Source of the DNA: Shigella phage pSs-1
Reading direction: 5' to 3' (one strand)
DNA: 64,000 bases
Sequence record: KM501444
In this document: in pieces, positions 59,995 through 64,000 of the stretch
Layout of the letters: each line of letters begins with the position of its first letter
Position numbering within the stretch: position 1 is the stretch's first letter
Notes under the pieces: generated by a model
The model's input: only the letters and a program-made list of their open reading frames with translations
Told to the model about the DNA's origin: nothing
Database searches by the model: none
Translations under genes and position numbers: made by a program

Positions 59995-60381
59995 TTATTC
60001 GAGGGAAAGAAGATATTTACTCTGGTAAAACATCCCAGTAATATCATCTATCGTGCTTTGAATGGCTGGAGGCATTTCTTTATAAATGCTGTTAGATTGG
60101 TCTAGTATGCGATCAATCATTTTAATTGTGTCGGTAGGAAGTTTACTGGCATCTGGAATAGAAGGCGTGTATTTTCTACCAGAATACCCCAAATATTGCT
60201 CACCAAATTTATCAATCAAATCTGGCAACTCAGAGAAAATAAAATCGTATGCTTTGTGTCTAGCATAACTTTTAGTTTCAAAATGTGCAGAATGAAAATA
60301 AGCTTGTGCAGCCATTAATAAACCTAAGTATTCATCTGCCTTTGAAGGTTTTCCACTTTGTGAAAAGTCGCTGAATTTCAT
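59995..60381 (-). CDS. hypothetical protein (128 aa), rI.-1 position
   Basis: ORF track; synteny. Confidence 0.5.
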
Positions 60382-60671
60382 TCAGTCTCCAATTTAATGT
60401 TCATAATTCTAGCGTATGATTGTGCCATCTCCGCGCCTCGCTCTATACATTCAAAATCGGAAGAGCACGGGTCATTTTTATAAGTCGTTCGCATAAAACT
60501 ATAGAACTGTTCAGATGATTCTACGCTTTTATTTTCAAAAAGCATATAAACATGTCTAATACCAGATTCCATAAATTTATCAAAATGAGGATCGACATTC
60601 GCTTCAATCGGTGGAGATAAAACAAACGCTAATCCTAGCATGGCAAATAGTGCCGTTGCTTTTAAGGCCAT
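60378..60671 (-). CDS. rI: lysis inhibition regulator rI (signal-anchor periplasmic protein)
   Basis: 97 aa; MALKATALFAMLGLAFVLSPPIEANVDPHFDKFMESG closely matches recalled T4 rI. Confidence 0.85.
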   Translation of the reverse strand: MALKATALFAMLGLAFVLSPPIEANVDPHFDKFMESGIRHVYMLFENKSVESSEQFYSFMRTTYKNDPCSSDFECIERGAEMAQSYARIMNIKLETE

Positions 60672-61710: not shown

Positions 61711-61892
61711 AAGGAATTTATATAATTAATAAGTTCTTGTTCTTTATCGTCGAAATCTTTACACAGTTCTTCGTATTCGTCGGTATTAAAAGGACCGCAT
61801 TCATCACAAACTTTTTCCAATTCGCTATTTTTATCCATAACTTCGTGAATAAGAGAAAATAGTCTGTCTTTTTGTTCTTTGCTTAGGCTCAC
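61707..61892 (-). CDS. hypothetical protein (61 aa), tk.2 position
   Basis: ORF track (GTG start); EQK..LF.L..E motif shared with preceding. Confidence 0.45.
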   Translation of the reverse strand: MSLSKEQKDRLFSLIHEVMDKNSELEKVCDECGPFNTDEYEELCKDFDDKEQELINYINSL

Positions 61893-62065
61893 AGTATGTC
61901 AATCCCCAAAAGTTTTAAAATGACTCGTTTCTGATTCATAACCGCTACGATTGAATGACCGTTGGGGTCTTTTTGACCTGATCCAATTATAAATCCTTTT
62001 TGTGCGGAAAGTTCAATCAAAACATCAAGTTCACGTAATAATTGATATTTTAAATCATCGTTCAT
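61889..62065 (-). CDS. hypothetical small protein (58 aa)
   Basis: hand-translated MNDDLKYQLLRELDVLIELSAQKGF...; below track cutoff. Confidence 0.3.
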   Translation of the reverse strand: MNDDLKYQLLRELDVLIELSAQKGFIIGSGQKDPNGHSIVAVMNQKRVILKLLGIDIL

Positions 62066-62289
62066 TTTGGTTTACCTTCTTTAACGAAATCAGGATAAGG
62101 ATAAAATCCTGAATAAAATCCTTCACCTTTATGATTGATGCATCCTTTATTAGAACAATAGCACCAATAATCGAAATCGCAAGCCATTTCATCATTACAT
62201 AAAGCAAAAACAACCGGCCATTCACACTTTTCGCAGTGGGCATTTTTAAGAATACTAGTTTGGCTCATAACCATGTAACCTTTAAGCAA
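62062..62289 (-). CDS. Cys-rich small protein (75 aa)
   Basis: multiple Cys/His (CEKCEW...CNDEMACDFDYWCYCSNKGCINH), possible zinc binding. Confidence 0.4.
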   Translation of the reverse strand: MLKGYMVMSQTSILKNAHCEKCEWPVVFALCNDEMACDFDYWCYCSNKGCINHKGEGFYSGFYPYPDFVKEGKPK

Positions 62290-62477
62290 TATTCTTCTAC
62301 ATGTTGTTTACGACCTTTCTTATCAATAAAGGTATATTCAACGAATGTTCCAATATAGTCTTTATCTACATCATGTGGACTATTAATTGGGCATTTAGTA
62401 CGGCAAATGCGTTCCCATTGACGAATAATTTCCACTTTGTTTTTAGGATCAAACGGATGCGGGTAATGTACTTTCAT
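62265..62477 (-). CDS. hypothetical protein (70 aa)
   Basis: ORF track. Confidence 0.4.
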   Translation of the reverse strand: MKVHYPHPFDPKNKVEIIRQWERICRTKCPINSPHDVDKDYIGTFVEYTFIDKKGRKQHVEEYCLKVTWL

Positions 62478-62928
62478 AATCCACCACTATTAAATCAATA
62501 TCAGGAGTAAACATGTCAATTAATTTAGAAACCTTATCCCAATCACCACCAGCAATACCGCAACCTATGCGTGGAATGTAAATTACTGGTTTAAACAAAA
62601 GGGTTTCTACCTGTAGATTTAATTCTATCATGCAGTTTACTAAAGCACCATAATCAAGATTAGGACCCGGTTCATATTGCGTATACAGGTTATAGCATAT
62701 ACCAAATCCTGTAGGATTATGTTTAAAAACAATAGACATATCGCCTAATTTATCACGAGAACCGTACTCGGTAGTGGTTTTATCTATTTCTAAAATTTTG
62801 GGATAGGCTCTTGCTAATTGACCTGCTACGCCAGAGCCCATTGTGTGGAAGCAATTGCACCCGTGCGCAATAATATTACCTTGAAGAAATAGGGCGACAA
62901 TATCGCCCTTGATATATTTTACAATCAT
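62449..62928 (-). CDS. macro-domain protein (ADP-ribose binding / hydrolase-like, 159 aa)
   Basis: IAHGCNCFHTMGSGVAGQ (N..G.GVA motif) and IPRIGCGIAGGDW (iP.iG.GiaG motif). Confidence 0.6.
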   Translation of the reverse strand: MIVKYIKGDIVALFLQGNIIAHGCNCFHTMGSGVAGQLARAYPKILEIDKTTTEYGSRDKLGDMSIVFKHNPTGFGICYNLYTQYEPGPNLDYGALVNCMIELNLQVETLLFKPVIYIPRIGCGIAGGDWDKVSKLIDMFTPDIDLIVVDYESTLPASV

Positions 62929-63272
62929 CTAGTACTCAATCCTCGATTATAAGAATCTACTAAACGGTCAACCATTGAATGACAAGCGGCTTTATCTTTC
63001 TCCTCCGCAACTGAACATTCTAAGGTATTCCACTTTTTAGCATATCGTTTTAACAATGTATCATTTTTGTATCTGCTTGATTTATCTCTTTCTCCGTCTT
63101 TATATGCATATATTAATTTCTGTGCAAATTCAGCTTGGCATGCTTTATTTTTCCCGCAATAATCCGCGGCAGTACGATTTACATACTCTCTAATTTCAGT
63201 ATATGATGTATCTGCTGATGCAGAAGCAGAAAATGAAATTAATCCTATACATAAAACCAAAATTTTAGTCAT
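62925..63272 (-). CDS. secreted Cys-containing protein (115 aa)
   Basis: Sec-type signal peptide MTKILVLCIGLISFSASASA; 4 Cys in mature part. Confidence 0.5.
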   Translation of the reverse strand: MTKILVLCIGLISFSASASADTSYTEIREYVNRTAADYCGKNKACQAEFAQKLIYAYKDGERDKSSRYKNDTLLKRYAKKWNTLECSVAEEKDKAACHSMVDRLVDSYNRGLSTR

Positions 63273-63810
63273 TTACTATTTCCAAAAGTTTATTATTTTT
63301 AAGGTAATTAGCCTTTTCTAGGACTTCAGAAGCATATTTAGAACCTGCTTTAACATTCCATCCCGAATTATAAGAGGATATTGCTTTTCTTATATCGCCC
63401 TTATGTATATTTAACCAATAAGAAAGTTCAATGTACGCCCAGGAAGCTGAATTGGACCGTTTATTCAACATTCTTTTTATTTCAGCATCGGTCATATTAT
63501 AACCAAGTTCCTTAACTCTTGCTCGCATGGTCGGCAAATAATTTTGGAACATTCCATAGGCATGATGCTTTGGTTTAGATTTTAAATTAACTCCGGCAGA
63601 GCTTTCTTGCCATAAAATAGCAGCCATTATATGACCCAATCCGCTCTTGTGGATATTTTTGTGTGTTTTATATTTTCCATCCTTAGAAAATTGTTCCCCG
63701 AATTGATATGCGTAACGCATGTTATCGAGTTGGACATTACTGAAAGTATGCTCGGAGCTATGTGCCATCATTGAAATGGCCAATAGACCAGCGAGTAGTG
63801 CTTTTCTCAT
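63265..63810 (-). CDS. secreted lytic-transglycosylase-like protein (181 aa)
   Basis: signal peptide MRKALLAGLLAISMMAHS; ILWQESS motif resembles SLT-domain catalytic Glu-Ser region. Confidence 0.5.
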   Translation of the reverse strand: MRKALLAGLLAISMMAHSSEHTFSNVQLDNMRYAYQFGEQFSKDGKYKTHKNIHKSGLGHIMAAILWQESSAGVNLKSKPKHHAYGMFQNYLPTMRARVKELGYNMTDAEIKRMLNKRSNSASWAYIELSYWLNIHKGDIRKAISSYNSGWNVKAGSKYASEVLEKANYLKNNKLLEIVND

Positions 63811-63817
63811 GCTTACC

Positions 63818-64000
63818 TCATTGAGTTTTAATTACTGCTTTAGAAGCCTTTCCTGGTAAACGACGACTATTGATAATTGCCATCCTGCATTGAAGCGACG
63901 GGTCTTTGAACTTTGCATTAGGTTTACAAACTGTAAATCCAAGCCAAAGATTTCCATCTGTGATTTCTAAACGCCCAGGACGATATTCAACCCCATCAAT
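63818..64000 (-). CDS. hypothetical protein, C-terminal 60 codons (partial, continues beyond window)
   Basis: open frame to window edge ending ...RRLPGKASKAVIKTQ; stop TGA 63818-63820. Confidence 0.4.
   Translation of the reverse strand: MDGVEYRPGRLEITDGNLWLGFTVCKPNAKFKDPSLQCRMAIINSRRLPGKASKAVIKTQ

What the first reader, a model, noticed from the sequence alone, without database searches (positions are those of the whole stretch)
62449..63810. Macro-domain protein followed by two secreted proteins downstream of tk
The 159-aa ORF carries both hallmark macro-domain glycine motifs (…N.F..MGSGVAGQ… and …IPRIGCGIAGG…), so it probably binds or hydrolyses ADP-ribose conjugates. This phage also encodes ModA/ModB ADP-ribosyltransferases, and hosts use ADP-ribosylating defences, so a phage macrodomain is a plausible reversal or anti-defence enzyme. 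The next two genes encode a signal-peptide Cys-containing protein and a secreted protein with an SLT-like ESS motif, i.e. periplasm-targeted factors.
Basis: partly seen in the sequence, partly recalled or inferred. Interest (0 to 1): 0.55.

Follow-up and report, generated by a model that had tools for sequence, protein, structure and literature searches.

The report
Known T4 macrodomain anti-defence gene block
This is the familiar vs.1-vs-tk.4 gene block of a T4-like phage: a small ADP-ribose-removing enzyme whose T4 counterpart was recently shown to defeat the bacterial DarTG2 defence, preceded by two proteins with export signals, so the finding is real but largely already explained.

Summary
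The three ORFs exist exactly as described, all on the minus strand. They are the T4 genes tk.4 (62449-62928), vs (62925-63272) and vs.1 (63265-63810) of a Tequatrovirus. They are transcribed vs.1 > vs > tk.4 > ... > tk, so they lie upstream of tk, not downstream.

**Tk.4.** It is a confident macrodomain of the TARG1/DarG/Poa1p class. A 2025 preprint renamed T4 tk.4 "adfM": deleting it makes T4 sensitive to DarTG2.

What I add on Tk.4:
- This phage carries a divergent allele, 58% identical in protein to T4's, inside flanks that are 95-100% identical. It was probably exchanged with Dhakavirus-type phages.
- The family has an invariant Gln where DarG and TARG1 have their catalytic Lys. It resembles Streptomyces SCO6735, which cleaves thymidine-ADP-ribose, and differs from phiKZ AdfM, which is Lys-type.

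**Vs.1.** It is a signal-peptide lytic transglycosylase with all the SLT motifs invariant.

**Vs.** It is 100% identical to the T4 "valyl-tRNA synthetase modifier". It nevertheless has a conserved cleavable signal peptide and four invariant cysteines. This conflicts with its textbook cytoplasmic target and remains unexplained.

Overall: an ordinary, already known locus. Low interest.

The parts
62449..62928 (-). tk.4 / adfM: 159-aa stand-alone macrodomain (ALC1-like / TARG1-DarG-Poa1p class), Gln-type active site (Q84 codon at 62677-62679)
   Evidence: Pfam Macro E 1.4e-7. AF2 pLDDT 93.5. Foldseek PDB top hits TARG1, Poa1p, BT1257, DarG and SCO6735, with TM 0.64-0.83. PADLOC DarG E 1.6e-7. 58% identical to T4 Tk.4, E 6e-70. 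Q84 aligns with TARG1 K84.
62925..63272 (-). vs: 115-aa 'valyl-tRNA synthetase modifier'. Predicted signal peptide (aa 1-20) followed by a four-helix bundle with four invariant Cys.
   Evidence: 100% identical to T4 Vs. PHROG 1256 E 1.7e-39. Family alignment. AF2 helices 22-39, 43-63, 70-86 and 91-112, with residues 1-20 at pLDDT<50.
63213..63272 (-). Coding region of the predicted Sec/SPase I signal peptide of Vs (MTKILVLCIGLISFSASASA|D)
   Evidence: Hydrophobicity 3.0 over residues 4-14. A20 is invariant, and the -3/-1 rule holds in all 12 other representatives.
63265..63810 (-). vs.1: 181-aa exported family-1 (SLT) lytic transglycosylase. Catalytic E69 codon at 63604-63606. Its stop overlaps the vs start by 8 nt.
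   Evidence: 99% identical to T4 Vs.1. Pfam SLT 23.4 bits against a cut-off of 21.3. Invariant E69, G86/F88/Q89, Y147/N148/G150 and Y159 in 27 sequences.
63757..63810 (-). Coding region of the predicted signal peptide of Vs.1 (MRKALLAGLLAISMMAHS|S)
62420..62892 (.). Divergent allele cassette: the body of tk.4 plus the first ~60 nt of tk.3
   Evidence: Nucleotide identity to T4: vs 97.1%, tk.4 nt 1-36 100%, rest of tk.4 57.5%, tk.3 nt 1-60 76.7%, rest of tk.3 95.4%. Against JS98 the pattern is reversed: vs 52%, tk.4 body 87.5%.
62891..62909 (-). Hairpin AGGGCGATATTGTCGCCCT inside codons 7-13 of tk.4, at the left edge of the divergent cassette
   Evidence: Terminator-like scan. The fold is weak: -17 kcal/mol for 76 nt, z -1.7. 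Conserved in T4 and JS98. Significance doubtful.
62265..62477 (-). tk.3 (70 aa, DUF7202), the next gene downstream. It overlaps the end of tk.4 by 29 nt.
   Evidence: Pfam PF23832 E 1.2e-37. Alignment to T4.
63818..64000 (-). 3' part of regB (site-specific RNase), the gene upstream of vs.1, cut by the window end
   Evidence: Coordinates transferred from the Ec_MI-02 annotation.

Best explanation
The region is the early-gene block vs.1-vs-tk.4 of a Tequatrovirus (T4-like phage).

Tk.4 (AdfM). It is a 159-aa free-standing macrodomain. It most likely protects replicating phage DNA from the host toxin DarT2, which ADP-ribosylates thymidine in single-stranded DNA, by hydrolysing the ADP-ribose off the base.

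Its active site is not DarG-like. Where DarG and TARG1 have the catalytic lysine, the whole Tk.4 family has an invariant glutamine (Q84), together with invariant H22 and N25 and the loop PRIGCGIAGGxW. This is the arrangement of Streptomyces SCO6735. There the Gln is essential, and hydrolysis is proposed to start from an activated water molecule rather than a lysine Schiff base.

The allele in this window is a divergent version of the T4 gene, swapped in as a cassette.

Vs.1. It is exported by a cleavable signal peptide and acts as a soluble periplasmic lytic transglycosylase, with E69 as the catalytic acid. Its role in infection is non-essential and unknown.

Vs. It is translationally coupled to vs.1 and is the protein known as the valyl-tRNA synthetase modifier. 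From its sequence it should also be exported and disulfide-bonded. How that fits with binding a cytoplasmic enzyme is open.

Shown: gene identities, folds, motifs and the mosaic structure. Shown by others for the T4 allele: the DarTG2 phenotype. Inferred: the catalytic mechanism, function of this particular allele, export of Vs and Vs.1, and the disulfides.
For: Identity of the locus:
- The window is 99.5% identical to phage Ec_MI-02 and about 95% identical to T4-type phages, with the same gene order.
- Vs is 100%, Vs.1 99% and Tk.4 58% identical to the T4 proteins.

Fold of Tk.4:
- AF2 pLDDT 93.5.
- Foldseek PDB hits TARG1, Poa1p, BT1257, DarG and SCO6735, at E 5e-10 to 4e-8.
- DarG HMMs match the macro half only.

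Function of Tk.4:
- T4 tk.4 is the single HIDEN-SEQ hit on DarTG2, and its knock-out sensitises T4.
- T4 lacking adfA and adfN stays DarTG2-resistant (PMC11825919).
- A different phage macrodomain, phiKZ gp104, removes ADP-ribose from TNTC ssDNA in vitro (PMC13309987).

Active site of Tk.4:
- Invariant H22, N25, Q84, G122, G124 and W130 in 61 sequences.
- Q84 aligns with TARG1 K84, and A126 with TARG1 D125.
- Family member P0096 aligns its NAYTQ to SCO6735 NMIGQ and to Mtb DarG NFPTK.
- SCO6735 Q85A is inactive, and SCO6735 cleaves dT-ADPr (PMC9411070).

Vs.1: SLT motifs are invariant and signal peptides are conserved.

Vs.
Against: - The DarTG2 phenotype comes from one preprint and was obtained with the T4 allele. 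No biochemistry exists for a T4-type AdfM, and the window allele differs from it at 42% of residues.
- The protein lacks DarG's catalytic Lys.
- The SCO6735 Lys34 position is Ser here, and the loop after Q84 (YEPGPNLDY) carries no Lys.
- The protein is acidic (pI 5.0), which is not what one expects of an ssDNA-binding surface.
- The N-terminal half resembles yeast Poa1p as strongly as anything else, so small-molecule ADP-ribose substrates are not excluded.
- For Vs, the literature function is cytoplasmic.
Confidence: 0.72

Rival explanations
1. Tk.4 neutralises DarT2 mainly by binding and inhibiting the toxin, or by shielding modified DNA, rather than by hydrolysing ADP-ribose.
For: Catalytically dead SCO6735, DarG and TARG1 all inhibit DarT in vitro, SCO6735 most strongly (PMC9411070). 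The tk.4 locus is unusually polymorphic: three allele classes in T4-like phages and a 57.5%-identity cassette inside ~97% flanks. That pattern fits an arms race with a protein partner better than an enzyme acting on a fixed chemical bond. The catalytic Lys of DarG is missing.
Against: Every residue needed for ADP-ribose binding and the SCO6735-type catalytic Gln is invariant across 61 diverse homologues, which argues for retained catalysis. The protein has no counterpart of the DarT-binding C-terminal domain of DarG; it is 159 aa and matches DarG HMM positions 3-144 of 329.
Confidence: 0.1
2. Tk.4 works on small ADP-ribose derivatives. It would be an ADP-ribose-1''-phosphate phosphatase or O-acyl-ADP-ribose deacylase, as the database label 'phosphatase' implies, or would degrade ADP-ribose-based defence signals. 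The DarTG2 phenotype would then be only one of its effects.
For: Residues 3-79 match yeast Poa1p (ADP-ribose 1''-phosphate phosphatase) at E 1e-9, with a shared H-x-C-N-C motif. Many records carry the CDD A1pp/Poa1p labels. Macrodomains are known to be promiscuous (PMC9503650).
Against: The only phenotype found in a genome-wide screen is DarTG2-specific. To my knowledge T4 RNA repair does not produce Appr-1''-p. The C-terminal loop matches SCO6735 and BT1257, not Poa1p.
Confidence: 0.1
3. Tk.4 reverses or tunes the phage's own protein ADP-ribosylation by Alt, ModA or ModB.
For: ModA and ModB are encoded in the same window. One bacterial macrodomain, MavL, is arginine-specific (PMC10951314, listed).
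Against: Alt, ModA and ModB modify arginine (my own knowledge). The TARG1/DarG/SCO6735 class acts on Glu/Asp esters and on thymidine. tk.4 is non-essential and shows no phenotype without DarTG2. Homologues occur in 2761 phage records, many from groups not known to carry Mod genes.
Confidence: 0.05
4. Vs is purely cytoplasmic, as the textbook function requires. Its hydrophobic N-terminus would be not an export signal but part of the protein, for example a ValRS- or membrane-binding helix.
For: Classical work places the factor on host valyl-tRNA synthetase (Muller and Marchin 1975 and 1977, as cited in PMC8076793). vs is needed in minimal medium, which fits a role in aminoacylation.
Against: The N-terminal 20 residues vary freely in sequence while keeping charge, hydrophobic core and -3/-1 small residues in 12 of 12 other representatives, with A20 invariant. 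That is the signature of a cleaved signal, not of a binding helix. AF2 leaves them out of the fold. Four invariant Cys sit where they could staple two helix hairpins. The upstream, overlapping gene encodes an exported enzyme.
Confidence: 0.3

Closest known systems
T4 Tk.4 = AdfM (anti-DarT factor, macrodomain), HIDEN-SEQ preprint 10.1101/2025.11.20.689424
   Same: Same locus between vs and tk.3, and nearly the same length (159 vs 155 aa). 58% identity, E 6e-70. All family-invariant residues are shared.
   Different: 42% of residues differ. The second glycine loop is GCGIAGGDW here and GAGIGKGNW in T4. The C-terminal tail is shifted by a 13-nt deletion. This allele has not been tested on DarTG2.
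Streptomyces coelicolor SCO6735 (PDB 5e3b), thymidine-ADP-ribose DNA hydrolase
   Same: Same macrodomain class. Gln at the catalytic position, conserved His and Asn near the N-terminus, and a near-identical PRIGCG[IL]AGGxW loop.
   Different: SCO6735 has a longer mobile loop with Lys89 and Lys94, plus Lys34, that help bind DNA. The Lys34 position is Ser in Tk.4, and the Tk.4 loop after Q84 carries no Lys. SCO6735 is a cellular DNA-damage-regulon protein, not a phage counter-defence.
DarG antitoxin macrodomain (PDB 5m3i, 5m31; NCBIfam NF048014)
   Same: Same fold (TM 0.73-0.78) and the same substrate implied by genetics.
   Different: DarG has a catalytic Lys (FPTK) where Tk.4 has LYTQ. DarG carries a second, DarT-binding domain, whereas Tk.4 is the macro half only. 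It scores 29 bits against a cut-off of 250.
phiKZ gp104 AdfM (Cell Rep 2026, PMC13309987)
   Same: A phage stand-alone macrodomain of similar size that counters DarT2. ADP-ribose removal from TNTC ssDNA was shown in vitro.
   Different: Only remotely related (BLASTP E 0.001 over 23 residues; hhalign probability 96%). It carries the DarG-type FPTK motif, so the two phage groups appear to have recruited different macrodomain lineages.
Family-1 lytic transglycosylases (Pfam SLT PF01464; Slt70/MltE/EmtA type)
   Same: Vs.1 has the E-S catalytic motif, a G-x-F-Q motif and a Y-N-x-G motif, all invariant, plus a signal peptide.
   Different: Very divergent: only 23.4 bits, and no PDB hit by sequence. 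It is an early, non-virion phage protein of unknown role, and is non-essential in T4.
T4 Vs, valyl-tRNA synthetase modifier (PHROG 1256)
   Same: Identical protein.
   Different: None in sequence. The discrepancy lies between its accepted cytoplasmic role and its exported-protein features.

Membership tests
Macro domain (Pfam PF01661) | Profile match above the curated threshold | tested here: met
   32 bits against a cut-off of 22, covering 2-117 of 118 profile positions.
Macro domain (Pfam PF01661) | Three-layer alpha/beta/alpha macro fold | tested here: met
   AF2 pLDDT 93.5, pTM 0.88. 153 PDB matches at E<=0.001; all 50 listed hits are macrodomains or macrodomain-scaffold designs.
Macro domain (Pfam PF01661) | Two glycine-rich ADP-ribose-binding loops | tested here: met
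   MGSGVAG (30-36) and GCGIAGG (122-128). G33, G122 and G124 are invariant in 61 homologues.
ALC1-like class (TARG1 / DarG / SCO6735 / Poa1p) | Closest structural and profile neighbours belong to this class | tested here: met
   Top Foldseek hits are TARG1, Poa1p, BT1257, DarG and SCO6735. The profile search of PDB gives E 1e-19 to 2e-9 for the same set.
DarG antitoxin (NCBIfam NF048014, PADLOC DarG) | Full-length match above the equivalog cut-off, including the C-terminal DarT-binding domain | tested here: not met
   29.4 bits against a cut-off of 250. Only profile positions 2-142 of 338 are matched. The protein is 159 aa.
DarG antitoxin (NCBIfam NF048014, PADLOC DarG) | Catalytic lysine (K80 in T. 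aquaticus DarG; K84 in TARG1) | tested here: not met
   The equivalent residue is Q84, invariant in the family.
SCO6735-type (Gln-type) DNA ADP-ribosyl hydrolases | Gln at the catalytic position, plus conserved His and Asn and the PRIGCGxAGGxW loop | tested here: met
   H22, N25 and Q84 are invariant. Loop identity to SCO6735 is shown. Equivalence was established through P0096 and PMC9411070.
SCO6735-type (Gln-type) DNA ADP-ribosyl hydrolases | Extended basic mobile loop (Lys89, Lys94) and Lys34 for DNA binding | tested here: inconclusive
   By transitive sequence alignment the Lys34 position is Ser32 in the window protein. The Tk.4 loop YEPGPNLDY carries no Lys. pI is 5.0. No coordinates were available to check the surface.
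AdfM (T4 Tk.4) | Orthology: same genomic position and significant full-length similarity | tested here: met
   It lies between vs and tk.3 in both phages. 58% identity over 155 aa, E 6e-70.
AdfM (T4 Tk.4) | Required for plating on a DarTG2 host | not testable with these tools
   Shown only for the T4 allele.
Family-1 lytic transglycosylase (Pfam SLT PF01464) | Profile match above the threshold | tested here: met
   23.4 bits against a cut-off of 21.3. This is marginal, but precomputed SLT hits are on record for many homologues.
Family-1 lytic transglycosylase (Pfam SLT PF01464) | Catalytic Glu in an E-S motif, a G-x-x-Q motif and a Y-N-x-G motif | tested here: met
   E69 (S70 and S71 >=90%), G86/F88/Q89 and Y147/N148/G150 are invariant in 27 sequences down to 41% identity.
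Family-1 lytic transglycosylase (Pfam SLT PF01464) | Muralytic activity producing 1,6-anhydro-MurNAc | not testable with these tools
   Needs a zymogram or muropeptide analysis.
Sec / signal peptidase I substrates (Vs and Vs.1) | Basic n-region, hydrophobic h-region, small residues at -3 and -1, conserved in character across homologues | tested here: met
   No SignalP was available, so the rules were applied by eye and by hydropathy.
Sec / signal peptidase I substrates (Vs and Vs.1) | Actual export and cleavage | not testable with these tools
   No experimental report was found.
Bacterial lipoproteins (SPase II) | Lipobox L-[AS]-[GA]-C at the end of the h-region | tested here: not met
   Cys8 of Vs is preceded by L-V-L and is not conserved. 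Vs.1 has no Cys.
T4 Vs (valyl-tRNA synthetase modifier) | Sequence identity to the T4 protein | tested here: met
   115 of 115 residues identical.
T4 Vs (valyl-tRNA synthetase modifier) | Binds and alters host ValRS | not testable with these tools
   Known only from the literature of the 1970s, as cited.

The most novel reading that the evidence does not exclude
Vs, catalogued for fifty years as a modifier of the cytoplasmic valyl-tRNA synthetase, may in fact be an exported, disulfide-stapled periplasmic protein. It is made by translational coupling with the exported lytic transglycosylase Vs.1. Its main biological role, including the newly reported requirement in minimal medium, would then lie in the cell envelope, and the ValRS association would be secondary or would involve an unexported fraction. 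A second, more likely but less surprising reading is that T4-type AdfM enzymes are Gln-type (SCO6735-like) DNA de-ADP-ribosylases. They would have been recruited independently of the Lys-type AdfM of phiKZ.
Probability: 0.2. Interest if true: 0.55.

Novelty: already known. Interest (0 to 1): 0.2.

Why it matters
The locus itself adds little. tk.4, vs and vs.1 are catalogued T4 genes, the macro and SLT similarities were reported in 2006 (PMC1524935), and the anti-DarTG2 role of tk.4 was reported in 2025.

Three side results may help people working on these genes:
1. **Allele exchange.** The anti-DarT2 gene is exchanged as a discrete cassette between T4-like genera, while its neighbours stay nearly identical. 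This is a typical mark of a counter-defence gene, and it provides natural allele series to test against DarT2 variants.
2. **Catalytic residue.** T4-type AdfM lacks the DarG lysine and looks like SCO6735. Active-site mutants should therefore target Q84, N25 and H22, and not a lysine.
3. **Vs annotation.** The 'valyl-tRNA synthetase modifier' carries a conserved export signal. This should be resolved before its new minimal-medium phenotype is interpreted.

Tried and rejected
2. **The afdb50 fold library.** Not available.
3. **Sequence searches of PDB for Vs and Vs.1.** Nothing found.
4. **Direct residue alignment of the window protein to DarG and SCO6735.** These hits ranked below the five alignments shown. 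I resolved it through family member P0096 and by hhalign to TARG1.
5. **The hairpin at 62891-62909 as a terminator or regulatory RNA.** The fold is not better than shuffles (z -1.7) and there is no Rfam match. I regard it as a by-product of the conserved KGDIVAL coding sequence.
6. **Promoter and terminator scan and repeat search of the region.** Nothing above chance.
7. **The classical literature.** The Miller 2003 T4 review and Muller and Marchin 1975 are not held. I therefore could not check how the vs gene was assigned to this ORF, or the size of the purified factor.
8. **Papers on export of Vs.** Searches found none.
Full report
**What is there.** Positions 62449-63810 hold three tightly packed minus-strand ORFs of 159, 115 and 181 codons. 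Each has a Shine-Dalgarno-like sequence before its ATG, read directly from the sequence. The stop of each gene overlaps the start of the next, by 8 nt (vs.1/vs) and 4 nt (vs/tk.4).

The 3.1 kb around them is 99.5% identical to Escherichia phage Ec_MI-02 and 94-98% identical to many other Tequatrovirus genomes. Annotation of Ec_MI-02 and of the original T4 sequence X04567 gives the gene order regB, vs.1, vs, tk.4, tk.3..., tk.1, tk.

The finding is therefore the T4 genes tk.4 (62449-62928), vs (62925-63272) and vs.1 (63265-63810). Because they are read from high to low coordinates, they lie upstream of tk, and the two 'secreted' genes come before the macrodomain gene.

**The macrodomain protein: family and fold.** Pfam Macro matches over the whole domain (E 1.4e-7, above threshold). 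An AlphaFold2 model built on 60 homologues is confident (pLDDT 93.5, pTM 0.88). Its best PDB neighbours are TARG1, yeast Poa1p, Bacteroides BT1257, the DarG macrodomains of Thermus and Mycobacterium, and Streptomyces SCO6735, with TM-scores of 0.64-0.83. The DarG models of PADLOC and NCBIfam match, but only over their macro half and far below the equivalog threshold. The protein is thus a free-standing macrodomain of the ALC1-like class. It is not a DarG.

**The macrodomain protein: function.** This has been addressed experimentally for the T4 orthologue. In the HIDEN-SEQ transposon screen, tk.4 was the only T4 gene depleted on a DarTG2-expressing host. A clean deletion made T4 sensitive, and the gene was renamed adfM (bioRxiv 10.1101/2025.11.20.689424). 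This filled a gap left by earlier work, which showed that T4 lacking adfA and adfN was still DarTG2-resistant (PMC11825919). A different phage macrodomain, phiKZ gp104, also named AdfM, removes ADP-ribose from DarT2-modified TNTC ssDNA in vitro and rescues DarT2 toxicity (PMC13309987).

**What I can add on mechanism.** In an alignment of 61 homologues down to 38% identity, the invariant residues are H22, G23, N25, C26, G33, A35, D49, N80, Y82, Q84, P119, G122, G124 and W130.

Profile alignments place Q84 exactly on TARG1 K84, and A126 on TARG1 D125. A family member, P0096, aligns its NAYTQ with NMIGQ of SCO6735 and with NFPTK of M. tuberculosis DarG. The Tk.4 family therefore lacks the catalytic lysine of DarG and TARG1 and has the glutamine of SCO6735. 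It also shares the loop PRIGCG[IL]AGGxW with SCO6735.

SCO6735 cleaves thymidine-linked ADP-ribose from ssDNA. It is inactivated by Q85A, and it is proposed to use an activated water molecule rather than a lysine Schiff base (PMC9411070).

phiKZ AdfM is only remotely related to Tk.4 and carries FPTK. The two phage groups thus seem to have recruited different macrodomain lineages for the same job.

Points against a simple SCO6735-like DNA enzyme are the Ser at the SCO6735 Lys34 position, the absence of Lys in the loop after Q84, and an acidic pI of 5.0.

**The allele.** Vs and Vs.1 are 100% and 99% identical to the T4 proteins, but Tk.4 is only 58% identical.

At the nucleotide level, identity to T4 runs as follows:
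- vs: 97.1%
- first 36 nt of tk.4: 100%
- rest of tk.4: 57.5%
- first 60 nt of tk.3: 76.7%
- rest of tk.3: 95.4%

Against the Dhakavirus JS98 the pattern is reversed: vs.1 67%, vs 52% and the tk.4 body 87.5%.

In the phage collection, 311 records carry a window-type allele (>=90% protein identity), 224 carry a T4-type allele, and 159 carry a third type about 84% identical to T4's.

The counter-defence gene is therefore exchanged as a cassette between genera while its neighbours are kept. Whether this reflects selection by different DarT2 variants or simple mosaicism cannot be decided here.

**Vs.1.** The protein matches Pfam SLT just above threshold. This similarity was noted for T4 in 2006 (PMC1524935). 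In 27 homologues down to 41% identity, the catalytic Glu (E69, in WQESSAG), G86-x-F88-Q89, Y147-N148-x-G150 and Y159 are invariant.

All N-termini have a basic start, a hydrophobic core and small residues at -3/-1, although their sequences differ. I conclude that Vs.1 is a soluble, exported lytic transglycosylase. It is non-essential in T4 under laboratory conditions, and its role in infection is unknown.

**Vs.** The protein is identical to T4 Vs, which is catalogued as binding host valyl-tRNA synthetase.

Its first 20 residues nevertheless behave like a cleaved signal peptide. They vary in sequence among the 12 other family representatives but keep the charge, the hydrophobic core and the -3/-1 rule, with Ala at -1 invariant. 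AlphaFold2 leaves them disordered, and folds residues 22-112 into a four-helix bundle.

Four cysteines are invariant. They sit at the ends of helices 1/2 and 3/4, where they could form two loop-stapling disulfides. This is an inference, because I had no coordinates.

The fold has no informative relative in PDB or BFVD. The mature form would be 11.0 kDa and the precursor 13.1 kDa.

The HIDEN-SEQ preprint reports that vs is the gene most needed in M9-glucose medium. I found no paper that discusses export of Vs, and I could not obtain the classical papers.

The conflict between an exported-protein signature and a cytoplasmic partner is the one thing in this region that I cannot explain.

**Verdict.** Novelty: already known. 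Interest is low. The divergent allele, the Gln-type active site and the Vs export paradox are modest leads.

Noticed in passing
window 62420-62892: The body of tk.4 and the first ~60 nt of tk.3 form a swapped cassette. Identity to T4 is 57.5% inside flanks of 95-100%, and the pattern is reversed against Dhakavirus JS98 (87.5% in tk.4, 52% in vs). At least three tk.4 allele classes circulate in T4-like phages.
   Followed up: yes
window 62062-62289 and 61889-62065 (minus strand): Two small genes lie between tk.3 and tk.2 that T4 lacks: a 75-aa protein matching Pfam PF23895 'phage zinc binding domain' (E 4e-29) and a 58-aa ORF. JS98 has an RB32 ORF111c-like gene at the same place.
   Followed up: partly
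window 62925-63272 (vs): The 'valyl-tRNA synthetase modifier' has a conserved cleavable signal peptide and four invariant Cys, which is at odds with a cytoplasmic target. An 85-aa annotation of the same gene in phage IME340 starts downstream and drops the signal peptide.
   Followed up: partly
window 62891-62909 (minus strand): An 8-bp GC-rich hairpin followed by a weak T-run lies inside codons 7-13 of tk.4. It is conserved in T4 and JS98 and sits at the left recombination junction. The fold is not significantly better than shuffled sequence.
   Followed up: yes
window 62449-62477: Relative to T4, a 13-nt deletion just before the tk.3 start shifts the end of tk.4. Its last nine codons (YESTLPASV) therefore overlap tk.3 by 29 nt. 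The tail is disordered in the model.
   Followed up: yes
L003 12518-13006 (phiKZ gp104): The biochemically characterised phiKZ AdfM carries the DarG-type FPTK lysine motif. T4-type AdfM carries LYTQ. The shared name therefore covers two distinct macrodomain lineages.
   Followed up: partly
window 60378-60671 (minus strand): rI (antiholin), another T4 protein with a cleavable signal peptide and two Cys, lies about 1.8 kb further along the same transcription direction. This early region encodes several envelope-directed proteins.
   Followed up: no
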